Made by a program: the position numbers and the translations under genes | Notes under the pieces: model-generated | The model's database searches: none | Told to the model about the DNA's origin: nothing | Seen by the model: the letters and a program-made list of their open reading frames with translations, nothing else | In this document: positions 1 through 3,116 of the stretch, in pieces | How the letters are laid out: each line of letters starts with the position of its first letter | How positions within the stretch are numbered: position 1 is the first letter of the stretch | Virus record (IMG/VR): IMGVR_UViG_2531839666_000011 | Length of the DNA stretch: 13,866 nt | Origin: a virus | Taxonomy: Duplodnaviria; Heunggongvirae; Uroviricota; Caudoviricetes | Direction: 5' to 3' (one strand)

Positions 1-2057
1 ATTCCCCCAGAGGCAGGCCACTGAAACGGTGCTCCGTGTCGGCAGTGATGGCGGTGGTCACCAGGCGGCTGTTTTCACCACTGCCACTGGTCAGGCGCAG
101 ACTGAAGCGCACGCCCTTCACCACCCGCGGCGTGTCCCATTTCGCCAGCGCCAGATACTGGCCGTCTGAGGCACTCACCTCCACCGTGAGGTGCTGCACT
201 GCCGGCGGGATGACGCTGTTCAGTGAACCGGAGAGCGGCTCAAAGCGGGCCCCGTTATCCACGATGGCTTCTTTTTCCGGTATGTGCTGCACTGCCGTGA
301 TGGCAAAGGTGCCGTCCGTGTTTTCCCGGATGGAAACACAGCGGAACAGGCGACGACGCAGTGACGGCAGGGAGAGCCCCCACACACCGTATGTCTCCAC
401 GCCATCCGGCAGGGCGCTGACCTGTATCCGGTCAGGGGCCGGTTGTGCAGTGATGTCCACGCGCACCGGCTTACCGCTGCCGTTAATCAGGTTCACCGTC
501 GATGTCCCTGTCTCCGGCAGGGTCACCTCACGGTCCAGCGTCAGGGTACGGCTGGCGGCATCGATGGACAGGATGCGTCCGCCGGTCAGGGTCCCGGCGT
601 AGTCGTTATCACAGATTTCAATGATGTCACCGGGCGTGTGCCGCAGCCCCTGTGACCCGAGCGTGAAATCCACCGTCTGCGTTTCCAGCAGTTCTGTCTT
701 TATCACCCACAGTCCGGCACGGTGGGCCTGACCGCGGCTGGTACAGCCGAACGCGTCCATCTTCAGCAGGTTGCGTCCGTAGCGCAGGATGGCGTCCGGG
801 TCTTCCACCAGTTCCGTGGAAGTCTGCCAGCCGTTCTGCGGGTCGGTGTAATTCACCTCCACCGCCGTGTGCCGGTCCTTCAGGGCACTGAAGCTGTAGC
901 GGAACCCCACGCCGTTATCATCCACCACCACATCGCTGTTGGTGTACGGCCACACCACATCCGACGGGCGGTCCTGAACGAACGTCAGCGTCTGGCCGTT
1001 CCATACCGGCATACAGCGCATCGCCGAGCAGAAATCCCCCAGGACATCCCACACCTTACGCTGCTGTGACAGGTACGCATTAAAGGTCATCCGCGGCTCT
1101 GTGCCCCCGAAACCATCCGGGACCGTCTGGTCGCAGTACTGCCCGATGGCATACAGTGCCCACTTGTCCACATCCGCGGCCCCCAGGCGTTTTCCCATCC
1201 CGTAGCGCGGGTGGGTCAGCATGTCCCACAGGCACCAGGCCGGGTTATTGCTGTATGCCGGTTTCAGACTCCCGTCCCAGATACCGCTGTAGGTGCGTTT
1301 TTCCGGGTCATAGTTTGACGGCACCTGAATGATGCGGCCGCGGATATGGTAGTTCACCACCATCTGCTGGCCACCGAACTGCTCCGCATCCACCTGCAGC
1401 CCCACAATGGCCGTGTTCGGGTAGCACTGTTTCACATCGATGATTTCGGTGTATGACGACCACAGCGTTCTGTTCTGCAGCTGGTCCGTGGTGCTGTCCG
1501 CCGTCTCCCTGACCATCCGGATGTTAAAGGGGCGCTCAGGGAGATTATTCAGAATCACAGACGTCAGGTACTGCGAGGTGGTCTTGCCGTTAATGGTGAT
1601 ATCCTTCTCCGTCACCCAGTGCCCGTTACGCTCAAGCTGAATCAGCAGGCGGACAGAAGAGGGATTACGGTCACCCTTTGAGGTGGTCTCCACCAGTGAC
1701 TGCACCCCGAAGGTGACCCGCAGACGGTCAATGTTCGCTGACGAGATGGTGCGCGTCACCGGCTTTGCCTTCGTCACCTCCACACCCAGTGCGGTTTCCG
1801 CCCCGGAGGACTCAAAGCCTTCCGGTGGTGTCTGCTCCTGCTCCCCGGCACGCCAGACGGCGGTCACACCGTGTATCACGGGATTACCGTCCGTGTCCGT
1901 CAGCGGGGTTTTGTTCACCAGAATACTCTGCAGTCCCTTCACCGGACCTTCCACCGGTCCCTCACCAATGGCATCAATCACGCTCATCATCTGCGTTGGA
2001 TTTGAGATTGTCCTTCGCCTCACGCGGTGTGTGCCCCTTGCCGCCCCCTTTACCCAC
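1..2057 (-). CDS. J: Host specificity / central tail fibre protein J, partial (3' end beyond window start); N-terminal region frameshifted
   Basis: Hand translation of the minus strand from GTG at 2057 gives MGKGGGKGHTPREAKDNLKS (lambda J starts MGKGSSKGHTPREAKDNLKS), then a stop at 1974-1976. The neighbouring frame from ATG-ATG at 1990 reads MMSVIDAIGEGPVEGPVKGLQSI and stays J-like to the window edge (e.g. AYLSQQRKVWDVLGDFCSA near 1078; DGQYLALAKWDTPRVVKGVRFSLRL near 160). GGAGAGGGGGA Shine-Dalgarno-like sequence precedes 2057. Absent from the ORF track because no stop lies inside the window. Confidence 0.9.
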
Positions 2058-2097
2058 TCTGTCCCCCTCTCCTGTCTGATGTCTGAATCTGTTTATG

Positions 2098-2131
2098 CCA
2101 GAAAACGACAGGCACCCCGGAGGGTGCCTGT
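2098..2131 (-). terminator. Candidate intrinsic terminator (minus strand) about 50 nt upstream of the J start
   Basis: Perfect 10-bp stem (2108-2117 pairs with 2122-2131) with 4-nt loop cgga; on the minus strand it is followed by CGUUUUCUGG. Confidence 0.5.
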
Positions 2132-2144
2132 GTCATGACGGAAT

Positions 2145-2176
2145 AAAATTTCTGAAATTCTTCACATTTCCGGCAA
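2145..2176. repeat. Direct repeat copy A (32 bp) with internal 13-bp palindrome AATTTC-T-GAAATT
   Basis: aaaatttctgaaattcttcacatttccggcaa; matches copy B at 2324-2355 with one mismatch (t/c at 2167 vs 2346). Contains TCTGA-N6-TCACA. Confidence 0.8.
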
Positions 2177-2323
2177 ATTCCCGTGGAGGAAACCTTGCCG
2201 GATGGGTAGATTACCTGCGGTCAATAAAAGCAATTAATCGCAACTCCTTAAGGTGACTATTCGTTCCTCCCGTTAATATCCAGGTGTATTGCGGGAGCGT
2301 TTTTTATTTCAGCTCCGCAACAG

Positions 2324-2355
2324 AAAATTTCTGAAATTCTTCACACTTCCGGCAA
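2324..2355. repeat. Direct repeat copy B (32 bp) with the same palindrome
   Basis: aaaatttctgaaattcttcacacttccggcaa; 179 bp downstream of copy A; immediately preceded by an imperfect hairpin at 2291-2318. Confidence 0.8.
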
Positions 2356-2439
2356 TTGCCTGTAGCCGCAATAATGACGCTGCGTTACTGTTCTTCTGCC
2401 CAAAAAATAACTCCATAACGTTAATCTTCATCGTTATTT

Positions 2440-2477
2440 CCCGCAGCTCCGCTAACTCTGCGGGATTTTTTTATTTT
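2440..2477 (+). terminator. Candidate intrinsic terminator (plus strand), convergent with the end of gene I
   Basis: 7-bp stem cccgcag (2440-2446) pairing with ctgcggg (2458-2464), 11-nt loop, followed by a-ttttttt-a-tttt (2465-2477). The I stop codon (2477-2479) overlaps the T tract. Confidence 0.6.
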
Positions 2478-3116
2478 CATCCCCGCCCGATAACCACCAC
2501 TTTCCCGTCACCGCCCTCATCACGGGTGCTGATGTCCTGGGATATCCGTCGTGAACCAACCAGCATTTCACCGTAAGGCACCGGCATCGGGTTACCCTGG
2601 GCAATCATGTTGTCCAGTGACGAAAAATACGTGTTCCGTTTACCATTATCTGTTGTCGTGGCAGACGGTGTTTTCGCCCTGGGGGTGAGCATCTGCGTGA
2701 TACCCCCCACCATCATGGCCACCCCAAGATTACCGATGACAGCACCAATACCGGTCCAGCTGAACACATATCCCACAACAGCCAGAACAGCACCGGCCAC
2801 CACCTGAAGAACACCGCCGTTTTTTAGCCCCCTCCGTCCGGGGCACCAGATGGATAACATCCCCGTCATTCAACGGCTCACATACTCTGGAATGAAGCTC
2901 CTGTTCAGATACATCCCTGCCCGCAATGCGTAACTGATACCATCCCTCATACAGTTTCTGCCGGAATCCCGGCACCTGCAGCGACAGGGCACGGATGGCC
3001 TCCGCTGCCGTGTTCACATACAGGCTGATGCGGCGACCAAATCGTTGTAAATCCCCGTGAAGGCAGATACGGACCAGTGGCGGTGACGCCAGACAGAATG
3101 CGTTCGTCGTTGCCAT
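2477..3116 (-). pseudogene. I: Tail assembly protein I homologue, split by a +1 frameshift in an A6 run (possible sequencing artefact)
   Basis: ATG at 3116 with GGGAGAGG upstream. The N-terminal frame reads MATTNAFCLASPPLVRICLHGDLQRFGRR...VIHLVPRTEGAK, then runs into a Cys-rich tail. The C-terminal frame (ORF 2477..2869) resumes NGGVLQVVAGAV...TDNGKRNTYFSSLDNMIAQGN...VVVIGRG, lambda I-like. The switch is at the T6 run 2820-2825 on the plus strand; A5 instead of A6 would restore one ORF. Confidence 0.85.

What the first reader, a model, noticed from the sequence alone, without database searches (positions are those of the whole stretch)
2058..2476. AT-rich ~420 bp non-coding insert between tail genes I and J, bracketed by convergent terminator-like hairpins
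In lambda, I and J are adjacent, and every other junction in this operon is tight or overlapping. Here a ~420 bp AT-rich segment sits between the I stop (2477) and the J start (2057). It has a plus-strand intrinsic terminator at 2440-2477 (facing into I), a minus-strand terminator-like hairpin at 2098-2131 just upstream of J, a third imperfect hairpin at 2291-2318, and no convincing ORF (longest candidates 11-40 aa, none conserved between the two repeat units). This looks like a moron-type insertion carrying a small non-coding RNA or regulatory cassette, or the scar of one. A terminator just upstream of J would also make J expression depend on antiterminated read-through.
Basis: partly seen in the sequence, partly recalled or inferred. 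Interest (0 to 1): 0.6.

Follow-up and report, generated by a model that had tools for sequence, protein, structure and literature searches.

The report
Two tandem prophage small-RNA genes (PasB family)
The AT-rich spacer between tail genes I and J is not junk: it holds two back-to-back small regulatory RNA genes, read opposite to the tail genes. One matches the known Hfq-bound prophage sRNA PasB/EcOnc22; the other is an undescribed divergent copy.

Summary
There is a 419-bp, AT-rich, ORF-free gap (2058-2476) between tail genes J and I, which lie on the minus strand.

The gap has three parts:
- **J leader (2058-2139).** It carries a conserved sense-strand hairpin followed by a U-tract. Phage lambda has a hairpin at the same position in its own 60-nt I-J spacer.
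- **Cassette A (2140-2318, plus strand).**
- **Cassette B (2319-2476, plus strand).**

Each cassette has a conserved head motif (TCTGA-N6-TCACA), -10-like hexamers, a single-stranded body and an intrinsic terminator.

Cassette B encodes the ortholog of a verified Hfq-dependent sRNA. It matches 72/76 nt with the region of E. coli O157 Sakai that holds EcOnc22, and 63/83 with EPEC PasB. PasB maps to exactly this I-J gap, antisense to the tail genes.

Cassette A is a divergent paralog with a different terminator stem. No transcript has been reported for it.

Relatives carry 1-4 such cassettes in tandem. Deposited phage genomes carry only one. The recent PasB survey reports no pasB copies closer than 28 kb.

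Verdict: this is a moron-type sRNA locus. One gene is already known, and the other adds a new family member and a tandem-array architecture. Interest is moderate. Genes I and J are both frameshifted in this window.

The parts
2058..2139 (-). J leader, not part of the insert. It holds the J ribosome-binding region (GGAGAGGGGG, plus-strand 2062-2072), imperfect 7-nt repeats (about 2072-2091) and the hairpin with U-tract.
   Evidence: The leader is conserved in two sequence classes across 76 loci. The copy number of the 7-nt repeat varies, giving leaders of 81, 88 or 95 nt.
2098..2131 (-). Sense-strand (tail-operon strand) hairpin ACAGGCACCC/GGGTGCCTGT with tail CGUUUUCUGG. It looks like an intrinsic terminator immediately upstream of J.
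   Evidence: Found by the terminator scan. Fold energy -23.1 kcal/mol, z -4.5. 91% of cells are paired across 9 variants, and one pair runs C-G / U-G / U-A. Lambda has a hairpin at the same position in its 60-nt I-J spacer.
2140..2318 (+). Cassette A: a divergent ('type 2') paralog of the PasB-family sRNA gene.
   Evidence: Its head is 90% identical to that of cassette B. The same unit occurs alone or inside 2-4-unit arrays in relatives. The full-length unit is present in 27 of 5426 E. coli genomes and in no phage record.
2151..2166 (+). Head motif TCTGA-N6-TCACA of cassette A (CRP-like core, 9 of 10 positions).
   Evidence: The half-sites do not vary across the genuine cassette classes, while the spacer does.
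2207..2212 (+). TAGATT, a candidate -10 hexamer for cassette A. The upstream TATAAT-like box of the family reads AACCTT here (2191-2196).
   Evidence: Every cassette has TA[C/G]NNT at this position, allowing 1-nt indels in four rows.
2218..2305 (+). Predicted RNA A, about 88 nt. The 5' end is inferred. The body contains AACUCCUUAAGGUGACUAUUCG. The terminator stem is 2267-2297 and the U-run is 2300-2305.
   Evidence: Folds. The terminator stem is 100% paired (12 pairs) in 6 distinct variants. No transcript data exist.
2306..2318 (.). Short stretch, ATTTCAGCTCCGC, that resembles the stop-codon region of gene I (ATTTTCATCCCCGC at 2473-2486). It may be a relic marking the junction of an old recombination event.
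   Evidence: Repeat family D2 and the cassette alignment. The match is short and weak.
2319..2476 (+). Cassette B: the PasB/EcOnc22 sRNA gene ('type 1').
   Evidence: Alignment with the E2348/69 PasB locus and the Sakai Sp15 locus. Similar cassettes occur in 1280 of 5426 E. coli genomes.
2330..2345 (+). Head motif TCTGA-N6-TCACA of cassette B.
2370..2391 (+). Two candidate -10 hexamers: AATAAT (2370-2375) and TACTGT (2386-2391).
   Evidence: The second hexamer lies 5 nt upstream of the position that aligns with the published PasB 5' end.
2397..2472 (+). Ortholog of the 83-nt PasB RNA, 76 nt here. The body is single-stranded with conserved AACUCC and GUUAAUCUUCAU. The terminator is 2439-2465 and the U7 run is 2466-2472, ending 4 nt before the I stop codon (2477-2479).
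   Evidence: 72/76 identical to the Sakai copy and 63/83 to E2348/69 PasB. The northern-probe sequence matches. The consensus structure is the terminator only, with one compensatory pair.
2477..3016 (-). Tail assembly gene I. It is frameshifted by one extra base at about 2826.
   Evidence: context confirmed.
1..2057 (-). Tail tip / host-specificity gene J. It runs off the window and is frameshifted by one extra base at 1998-1999, so the GTG-initiated frame stops after 27 aa.

Best explanation
**What it is.** The I-J spacer consists of the ordinary J leader plus a moron-type insert. The insert is two tandem, independently terminated small-RNA genes, transcribed from the strand opposite the late tail operon.

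**Cassette B.**
- It makes the PasB/EcOnc22 sRNA, about 76 nt here (2397-2472).
- The RNA has a long unstructured body followed by a Rho-independent terminator with a U-tail.
- By homology, it is made from the resident prophage while the late genes are silent. It is bound and stabilised by Hfq, and it base-pairs in trans with host mRNAs.

**Cassette A.**
- It is an older, divergent paralog with its own intact terminator and a different body sequence.
- It probably makes a second sRNA of about 88 nt. Alternatively, it may be a silent relic.

**How the tandem arrangement arose.** It most likely arose by recombination between the I-J regions of different lambdoid prophages.

**What is shown and what is inferred.**
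- Shown here: the anatomy, the homology, the position, terminator conservation and the array architecture.
- Taken from papers on homologs: expression, Hfq dependence and trans partners.
- Inferred: the 5' ends, which -10 hexamer is used, CRP-type control through the head motif, and activity of cassette A.
For: **PasB maps to this position.**
- PasB is listed as NC_011601 1466343->1466261, minus strand, 83 nt (PMC8550237 Table S6). In that genome the I stop is at 1466255 and the J start at 1466496.
- The reverse complement of the PasB northern probe is AGCTCCGCGATCACTGCGGGATT. The window reads AGCTCCGCTAACTCTGCGGGATT at 2445-2467.
- Identity is 72/76 to the Sakai copy and 63/83 to PasB.

**Experimental support in homologs.**
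- The Hfq-CRAC peaks EcOnc22/23/24 gave a northern band of about 85 nt that is destabilised in a hfq deletion.
- These peaks lie in the I-J gaps of Sp15, Sp14 and Sp11, antisense to the tail genes.
- With a coordinate shift of about +140 calibrated on AgvB1, they fall on the PasB homolog.
- PasB abundance falls in the hfq deletion (log2 fold change -6.8 and -2.4).
- PasB is the second RNA in RIL-seq chimeras with core mRNAs, for example yhhX, ygeV and ydbJ.

**Structure.** Terminators were found by scan and by folding. The family consensus structure is the terminator only, with a single-stranded body. The type-2 terminator is fully paired in all variants.

**Cassette architecture.** It is repeated across 118 cassettes, with T, A and T fixed at positions 1, 2 and 6 of a TA[C/G]NNT hexamer.

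**Non-coding.** No ORF is conserved.

**Insert status.** Lambda has only a 60-nt spacer.
Against: - There are no transcript data for this genome or for any type-2 cassette.
- No sigma-70 promoter passed the consensus scan in 1800-2800.
- Cassette A has lost the family's TATAAT-like box, which reads AACCTT here.
- Rfam has no model that matches, so the family assignment rests on pairwise homology.
- Placing the EcOnc22 peaks on the sRNA depends on a coordinate shift calibrated about 1 Mb away.
- I and J are frameshifted, so the prophage may be decaying and its sRNA genes could be decaying too.
Confidence: 0.82

Rival explanations
1. Cassette A is a dead relic. In this reading only cassette B is a working gene. 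Unit A is a leftover of an illegitimate recombination between the I-J regions of two prophages, kept because it is harmless.
For: - The TATAAT-like box of the family is degenerate in unit A, reading AACCTT.
- Unit A of this type is rare: 27 of 5426 genomes, and none in phage records.
- Its copies are at least 97% identical, so conservation says nothing about selection.
- The flanking genes I and J are frameshifted.
- Multi-unit arrays are absent from all 147 phage records that hold the locus.
Against: - The terminator of unit A is intact and fully paired in all type-2 variants.
- The TA[C/G]NNT hexamer found in every cassette is present as TAGATT.
- The head motif is intact.
- Type-2 cassettes with good TATAAT or CATAAT boxes exist, including as the only unit of a locus.
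Confidence: 0.4
2. The spacer is mainly a cis-acting control region of the tail operon. In this reading, hairpins and terminators on the late mRNA tune J expression or stabilise the upstream message, and any antisense RNAs are by-products.
For: - A conserved sense-strand hairpin with a U-tract sits just upstream of the J ribosome-binding site.
- Lambda has one at the same place.
- The late mRNA necessarily contains the complement of every cassette.
Against: - That hairpin lies outside the inserted cassettes.
- On the sense strand the cassette terminators are not followed by U-runs, so they would not terminate late transcription (sequence).
- The homologous plus-strand RNA is abundant, Hfq-bound and found in chimeras with unlinked host mRNAs.
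- Cassette number varies from 1 to 4 while the J leader stays the same.
Confidence: 0.1
3. The RNAs act as cis-antisense regulators. In this reading they pair with the I-J intercistronic part of the late transcript of this or co-resident prophages, and trigger its cleavage.
For: - They are perfectly complementary to the late mRNA by construction.
- The PasB 3' end lies 4-5 nt from the I stop codon.
- EHEC genomes hold up to 9 related loci.
Against: - The RNAs do not overlap the J ribosome-binding site or any coding sequence.
- Predicted pairing with the J leader is no better than for shuffled sequences.
- The RIL-seq partners that were read are core-genome mRNAs.
Confidence: 0.12
4. The spacer is the remnant of a decayed protein-coding moron.
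For: The composition is AT-rich and foreign-looking. Short ORFs of 40-95 aa exist.
Against: - No ORF is shared in strand, frame or length across 51 distinct gap versions, and one version has none of 25 aa or more.
- There are no Pfam matches.
- No relative carries a long ORF here.
Confidence: 0.02

Closest known systems
PasB, pathogenicity-associated sRNA B of EPEC E2348/69 (Pearl Mizrahi et al. 2021, PMC8550237; Zhu, Shabalina & Storz 2026 preprint, 10.64898/2026.05.13.724894)
   Same: - Same locus: the I-J gap of a lambdoid prophage.
- Same strand relation: antisense to the tail genes.
- Same terminator stem, CCCGCAG/CTGCGGG followed by U7.
- Same conserved body motifs, AACUCC and (G/A)UU(A/G)AUCUUCAU.
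- Same upstream head motif.
   Different: - Only 63/83 aligned positions are identical.
- The terminator loop and the 5' third differ.
- E2348/69 has one cassette, while the window has two.
- The preprint reports pasB copies never closer than 28 kb and attributes multiple Pas copies to separate prophages rather than tandem duplication.
EcOnc22 / EcOnc23 / EcOnc24 of E. coli O157:H7 Sakai (Tree et al. 2014, PMC4104026; listed with unknown targets in PMC7873438)
   Same: - The window's RNA B is 72/76 identical to the Sp15/Sp14/Sp11 copies.
- Same single-cassette architecture as the window's cassette B.
- Hfq-bound, with a band of about 85 nt that is destabilised without Hfq.
   Different: - Each Sakai prophage has one cassette.
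- The mapping of the published peak onto the sRNA needs a shift of about +140 nt between genome versions.
AgvB / AsxR anti-sRNA family of EHEC prophages (Rfam RF02702 and RF02703)
   Same: Both are prophage-borne, Hfq-binding short RNAs. Both form families with conserved terminators and variable bodies, sit at moron sites, and occur in many copies per genome.
   Different: - The sequence is different: there is no Rfam match even at E<=10.
- The position is different: that family lies downstream of PR', not in the tail operon.
- There is no evidence here of sponge activity.
Tandem paralogous sRNA genes such as OmrA/OmrB and PrrF1/PrrF2 (cited)
   Same: Adjacent sRNA genes with shared ends and divergent bodies, each with its own terminator.
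   Different: Those are chromosomal core genes. Here the units sit inside a phage late operon, vary from 1 to 4 between strains, and appear to carry relics of the neighbouring gene between units.
Phage morons (Juhala et al. 2000, as cited in PMC4104026)
   Same: Extra DNA between two genes that lie close together in lambda. It has its own terminator, a deviant base composition, and expression from the prophage.
   Different: The cargo is RNA genes rather than a protein gene, and it is oriented against the late operon.
The lambda I-J spacer (J02459 15445-15504)
   Same: Both have a GC-rich hairpin just upstream of the J ribosome-binding site on the sense strand.
   Different: Lambda has no antisense cassette. 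Its hairpin did not pass the terminator scan.

Membership tests
PasB/EcOnc22 sRNA family (cassette B) | Encoded in the I-J intergenic region of a lambdoid prophage, on the strand opposite the tail genes | tested here: met
   Published PasB coordinates compared with the RefSeq annotation of E2348/69. The Sakai peaks lie in the Sp11/14/15 I-J gaps. Window layout.
PasB/EcOnc22 sRNA family (cassette B) | Sequence homology to the mapped RNA | tested here: met
   72/76 identical to the Sakai copy and 63/83 to E2348/69 PasB. The northern-probe sequence matches except in the loop.
PasB/EcOnc22 sRNA family (cassette B) | [quoted passage not shown] | tested here: met
   The stem has 8 pairs: seven are kept in all 19 representative sequences (one of them through a compensatory G-C to A-U change), and the outermost pair is broken in 2.
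PasB/EcOnc22 sRNA family (cassette B) | Expressed as an RNA of about 83-85 nt, Hfq-bound and Hfq-stabilised, and forming chimeras with mRNAs | not testable with these tools
   Known only for the homologs. No transcript data exist for this genome.
PasB/EcOnc22 sRNA family (cassette A) | Homology over the promoter, body and terminator | tested here: inconclusive
   The head is 90% identical over 40 nt, and the AACTCC..TAA and TCTCCCG motifs are shared. However, the terminator pairs differently (CUCCCGU/GCGGGAG) and the body is different. It is a paralog rather than an ortholog.
Moron (autonomous insert in a phage late operon) | Absent from the same junction in a related phage; deviant composition; own terminator | tested here: met
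   The lambda spacer is 60 nt against 419 nt here. GC is 0.43-0.475 against 0.55-0.65 in the flanks. Terminators.
Moron (autonomous insert in a phage late operon) | Own promoter | tested here: inconclusive
   Conserved -10-like hexamers are present, but nothing passes the sigma-70 consensus scan. The transcription start is not mapped.
AgvB/AsxR anti-sRNAs | Conserved 3' region of about 42 nt (Rfam RF02702/RF02703) and position downstream of PR' | tested here: not met
   No Rfam match at E<=10 in 1800-2800, nor at gathering score in the whole window. The locus is in the tail operon.
HnrS (EcOnc10/11/12) | 66-nt multicopy prophage sRNA that represses hha | tested here: not met
   HnrS corresponds to EcOnc10-12 in Sp12/Sp10/Sp9, at coordinates far from the I-J gaps. 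It is a different locus.
Intrinsic terminator (J-proximal hairpin, sense strand) | GC-rich stem followed by a U-tract | tested here: met
   (10 pairs, 7 G-C). The tail is CGUUUUCUGG here and UGUUUUUG in most relatives. Termination activity was not tested.
CRP-dependent promoter | TGTGA-N6-TCACA site at a class I or class II distance from the start | tested here: inconclusive
   The core matches 9 of 10 positions at both heads. This count is not significant in the window alone, since 17 of 200 shuffles do as well. The half-sites are fixed and the spacer varies across cassette classes. The centre would lie near -60 from the inferred start. Binding was not tested.
Protein-coding gene or pseudogene | Conserved ORF or protein-level homology | tested here: not met

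The most novel reading that the evidence does not exclude
**The proposal.** The I-J junction of lambda-like tail operons may be a growing array of sRNA genes. It holds 1-4 tandem cassettes that share a promoter-proximal operator (TCTGA-N6-TCACA, CRP-like) and terminator modules, but carry different single-stranded bodies.

**What that would mean.** One prophage locus could deliver several differently targeted, co-regulated Hfq sRNAs.

**How arrays would grow.** They would grow in resident prophages by recombination between co-resident phages, leaving short relics of the 3' end of gene I between units. The 'type 2' unit seen in this window would then be an unrecognised, expressed sRNA class.
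Probability: 0.35. Interest if true: 0.55.

Novelty: new member of a known kind. Interest (0 to 1): 0.36.

Why it matters
**Annotation gap.** About a quarter of complete E. coli genomes (1280 of 5426) carry this cassette. There are 4247 copies, up to 9 per genome, and none is annotated in RefSeq.

**Unknown function.** The targets and role of PasB/EcOnc22 are still listed as unknown.

**What the tandem structure would change if the extra units are active:**
- The locus is a variable tandem array with at least two structural classes, so the sRNA content of pathogenic E. coli would be larger and more variable than copy counts based on PasB similarity suggest.
- The recent conclusion that PasB is a single-copy, low-diversity sRNA would need revising.
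- There would be a concrete place to watch new sRNA genes arise by recombination between prophages.

**A testable lead.** The shared head motif suggests a regulator, such as CRP-type control, that would link prophage sRNA output to host physiology.

Tried and rejected
- **Rfam.** Searches at gathering score over the whole window, and at E<=10 over 1800-2800, gave only chance-level hits.
- **Species-representative genomes.** A scan with the head motif gave 64 single chance hits in unrelated taxa. None has a cassette-type terminator downstream, so the scan shows no cassette in other species but does not map the range.
- **Trans pairing with the J leader.** Duplex energies for either predicted RNA against the J leader and start were no better than for shuffled sequences.
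- **Small ORFs.** No Pfam match and no conservation.
- **Origin of the long inter-unit spacers.**
  - On the tail-gene strand, the roughly 60-nt spacers of 3-4-unit arrays read ...ISVAEDRKYQAGFKG*.
  - I looked for an intact gene I allele with this end. It occurs only in unannotated intergenic DNA, in 80 genomes.
  - The 'relic of gene I' reading therefore remains a conjecture.
- **Other sRNAs considered and rejected.** AgvB/AsxR (different sequence and locus) and HnrS (EcOnc10-12, a different locus).
- **Transcript-end data.** The supplement of Sy et al. 2020, which could hold mapped ends for EcOnc22, is not held as text.
- **Covariation.**
  - The type-1 stem has one compensatory event.
  - The type-2 stem has wobble changes only.
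  - The J-proximal hairpin does not exceed the shuffle controls.
  - Structural support therefore rests mostly on conservation of pairing.
Rejected as a functional unit.
Full report
**1. The observation**

The tail genes lie on the minus strand. The order H, M, L, K, I, J follows from the ORF table and from the RefSeq annotation of a 96.7%-identical relative.

- J starts with GTG at 2057 and the I stop codon is at 2477-2479. This leaves a 419-bp gap, 2058-2476.
- GC is 0.43-0.475 in the gap, against 0.55-0.65 in the flanks.
- The terminator scan finds two sites in the gap. One is a plus-strand site at the I end. The other is a minus-strand site (stem 2108-2131) at the J end.
- Both fold well. 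The plus-strand terminator is stem 2439-2446/2458-2465 followed by U7. The minus-strand hairpin has an energy of -23.1 kcal/mol and z -4.5.
- A 40-nt direct repeat (2145-2184 and 2324-2363, 90% identical, 179 nt apart) defines two units.
- No ORF is credible. The longest ones have no Pfam match. Among 51 distinct versions of this gap, no ORF is shared in strand, frame or length.

**2. What it is**

The decisive lead came from the literature. PasB is an Hfq-dependent sRNA of EPEC E2348/69. It is listed at NC_011601 1466343->1466261 (minus strand, 83 nt, prophage PP6) with northern probe AATCCCGCAGTGATCGCGGAGCT (PMC8550237 Table S6).

- In that genome, gene I ends at 1466255 and J starts at 1466496, both on the plus strand. 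PasB therefore lies in the I-J gap, antisense to the tail genes, and its 3' end is 5 nt from the I stop.
- Aligning that gap with the window puts the PasB RNA on window 2397-2472.
- The reverse complement of the probe matches 2445-2467 except in the terminator loop.

In E. coli O157 Sakai there are three Hfq-CRAC peaks, EcOnc22/23/24. They gave a northern band of about 85 nt that is destabilised without Hfq (Tree et al. 2014 Table S2).

- The peaks lie in the I-J gaps of prophages Sp15, Sp14 and Sp11, on the strand opposite the tail genes.
- The published coordinates refer to an older genome version.
- A shift of about +138 to +145 nt, calibrated on AgvB1, puts the peaks on the PasB homolog. 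Without any shift they would fall on the J-proximal hairpin.
- The three peaks keep the same relative offset, so the shift is constant between 2.17 and 2.90 Mb.
- The window's RNA B is 72/76 identical to the Sakai copy and 63/83 identical to PasB.
- Rfam has no model for this family.

**3. Anatomy of a cassette**

I extracted 118 cassettes from 76 loci. These comprised the window, annotated E. coli and phage records, and 78 IMG/VR loci found with the head motif. Each cassette has five parts:

1. **Head.** The sequence is AATAAAAWTTCTGAAWTTCTTCACATTT. The half-sites TCTGA and TCACA are fixed and the 6-nt spacer varies.
2. **TATAAT-like box.** It lies 24 nt after TCACA and reads TATAAT, AATAAT, CATAAT or TATCAT. 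It is degenerate in some classes.
3. **Second hexamer.** It starts 10 nt further on and reads TA[C/G]NNT in every cassette, allowing 1-nt indels in four rows. The published PasB 5' end lies 6 nt downstream of it.
4. **Body.** About 45-65 nt that the consensus fold leaves single-stranded. It carries the conserved motifs AACUCC and GUUAAUCUUCAU.
5. **Intrinsic terminator.**

There are two terminator classes:

- **Type 1 (PasB type).** The stem is CCCGCAG/CTGCGGG followed by U7. Seven of its eight pairs are kept in all 19 representative sequences, one of them through a compensatory G-C to A-U change. The outermost pair is broken in two.
- **Type 2.** The stem is (U)CUCCCGU..AAUA/UAUU..(A/G)CGGGAG(A) followed by U6. 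All 12 pairs form in all six distinct variants, with wobble changes only.

In the window:

- Cassette B (2319-2476) is type 1.
- Cassette A (2140-2318) is type 2. Its stem is 2267-2297 and its U-run is 2300-2305.

That downstream sequence changes without compensation in relatives. I do not regard it as a functional unit.

**4. The J-proximal part is not insert**

- The 82-nt leader (2058-2139) carries the J ribosome-binding site, a variable number of 7-nt repeats and the sense-strand hairpin with U-tract.
- It occurs once per locus, however many cassettes follow.
- Lambda has a 60-nt I-J spacer with a GC-rich hairpin at the same relative position. That hairpin does not pass the terminator scan.
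- The insert proper is therefore 2140-2476. It sits between the I stop and the ancestral leader.
- The hairpin keeps its pairing in two leader classes, and one pair runs C-G / U-G / U-A. The covariation statistics do not exceed the controls.
- In a lysogen the hairpin would stop unmodified RNA polymerase before J. Q-modified late transcription reads through terminators. That is established knowledge for lambdoid phages and was not tested here.

**5. Arrays**

Gap lengths fall into classes:

| Gap length (nt) | Loci | Cassettes |
|---|---|---|
| about 235-261 | 54 | 1 |
| about 419-424 (includes the window) | 10 | 2 |
| 477-488 | 2 | 2 |
| 714 | 1 | 3 |
| 906-928 | 9 | 4 |

The recurrent orders of cassette types are 2-1 (the window's form), 1-2-1-1, 2-1-1 and 1-1.

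- Bodies differ between the units of an array.
- Internal units of the long arrays carry spacers of about 60 nt after the terminator. On the tail-gene strand these read ...ISVAEDRKYQAGFKG* and ...ISVAEDRRHHIGFRG.
- They look like 3' ends of another gene I allele. No intact gene with that end was found.
- In the window the corresponding relic is only 13 nt, 2306-2318.
- One array is interrupted by an IS66 element.

Counts in complete E. coli genomes:

| Feature | Genomes (of 5426) |
|---|---|
| Cassette-B-like sequence (4247 places, up to 9 per genome, none annotated) | 1280 |
| The window's cassette A, at full length | 27 |
| The long-array spacer | 80 |

- All 147 phage records that hold the locus have a single cassette, and cassette A matches none of them.
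- Multi-unit arrays are thus seen only in chromosomes and in isolate-derived viral contigs. This fits growth by recombination among co-resident prophages.
- The 2026 survey of Pas sRNAs reports a minimum distance of 28 kb between pasB copies. It attributes multiple Pas copies to separate prophages rather than tandem duplication. The arrays therefore do not appear to have been described.

**6. How it most likely works**

From homology, cassette B makes an Hfq-dependent, trans-acting sRNA from the resident prophage.

- In EPEC, PasB drops strongly in a hfq deletion.
- It ranks high in the number of RIL-seq partners, with 37.
- In the chimeras I read, it is the second RNA, with core mRNAs such as yhhX, ygeV, ydbJ 5'UTR and yibT. 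The PasB part of these chimeras covers its 3' 58 nt.
- It is higher in overnight static LB than in exponential DMEM.
- Its targets are still described as unknown in EHEC.

Which hexamer serves as the -10 is unresolved.

- The TA[C/G]NNT hexamer, found in every cassette, fits the reported 5' end.
- The TATAAT-like box would give a precursor about 13-16 nt longer.
- The head motif matches the CRP core at 9 of 10 positions. It would be centred near -60 from the inferred start, a class I distance.
- Spot 42, which CRP represses (my own knowledge), behaves oppositely to PasB in the same data set.
- This CRP idea is inference only. The motif count in the window is not significant on its own.

Cassette A keeps its head, the TA[C/G]NNT hexamer (as TAGATT) and its terminator. 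It has lost the TATAAT-like box. I put its chance of being an active sRNA gene at roughly one half.

**7. Comparison and novelty**

- Cassette B is a member of a known, experimentally verified family (PasB/EcOnc22).
- Cassette A is a new, divergent member. The tandem, variable-number arrangement is a new observation about a known kind of element.
- It is not an AgvB/AsxR anti-sRNA and it is not HnrS.
- Nothing here lies outside the established picture of prophage morons that encode Hfq sRNAs. I therefore rate the interest as moderate.

**8. Side observations**

- J carries an extra base at 1998-1999, so the GTG frame stops after 27 aa.
- I carries an extra base at about 2826, which splits its ORF.
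- This prophage is therefore either defective in both tail genes flanking the sRNA locus, or the sequence has errors.

Noticed in passing
window 1974-2057 (minus strand), extra base at 1998-1999: Gene J is frameshifted. The GTG-initiated frame stops after 27 aa. Relative to the CFIAFB20190157 J gene there is one extra C (AAATCCAACG against AAGT-CAACG), and the long J frame continues in another frame.
   Followed up: partly
window 2477-3116 (minus strand), extra base at about 2826: Gene I is also frameshifted (GGGGGC-T-AAAAAACGG against GGGGGCAAAAAACGG in the relative). This splits it into ORFs 2730-3116 and 2477-2869. With J also broken, the prophage looks defective, unless these are sequencing errors.
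   Followed up: partly
window about 2072-2091; leaders of L008, L013 and L051: An imperfect 7-nt repeat (GATGTCT on the plus strand) lies between the J ribosome-binding site and the hairpin. Its copy number varies among relatives, giving leaders of 81, 88 or 95 nt. This changes the distance from the hairpin to the ribosome-binding site.
   Followed up: no
L006 (E. coli 2013C-3181, NZ_CP027312) 1886-2900: The third cassette of a three-unit array is interrupted by an IS66-family element (tnpA/tnpB/tnpC), and gene I is no longer adjacent.
   Followed up: no
L008 1333-1395 and 1786-1849 (E. coli CB6837), and 80 E. coli genomes: The roughly 60-nt spacers after internal cassettes are 87% identical to each other. 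On the tail-gene strand they encode ...ISVAEDRKYQAGFKG* and ...ISVAEDRRHHIGFRG. They look like relics of the 3' end of another gene I allele, but no intact gene with this end was found.
   Followed up: partly
E. coli RefSeq complete genomes: All 4247 places that match the PasB-type cassette, in 1280 genomes, are unannotated. PGAP has no model for this sRNA and Rfam 15 has none either.
   Followed up: yes
window 2309-2431 (minus strand): A 40-aa ORF starts with ATGAAGATTAAC (MKIN...), which is exactly the complement of the conserved sRNA motif GUUAAUCUUCAU. Similar 'MKIN' ORFs of 31-39 aa occur in some cassette classes. The ATG is ACG in others and the downstream peptides are unrelated, so it is probably not a gene.
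   Followed up: partly
L091 (lambda J02459) 15445-15504: Lambda's own I-J spacer is 60 nt and folds into a GC-rich hairpin (AAACCGCC-UGCG-GGCGGUUU) followed by UGUCAUUU, just before the J ribosome-binding site. It is a positional counterpart of the window's hairpin at 2108-2131.
   Followed up: partly
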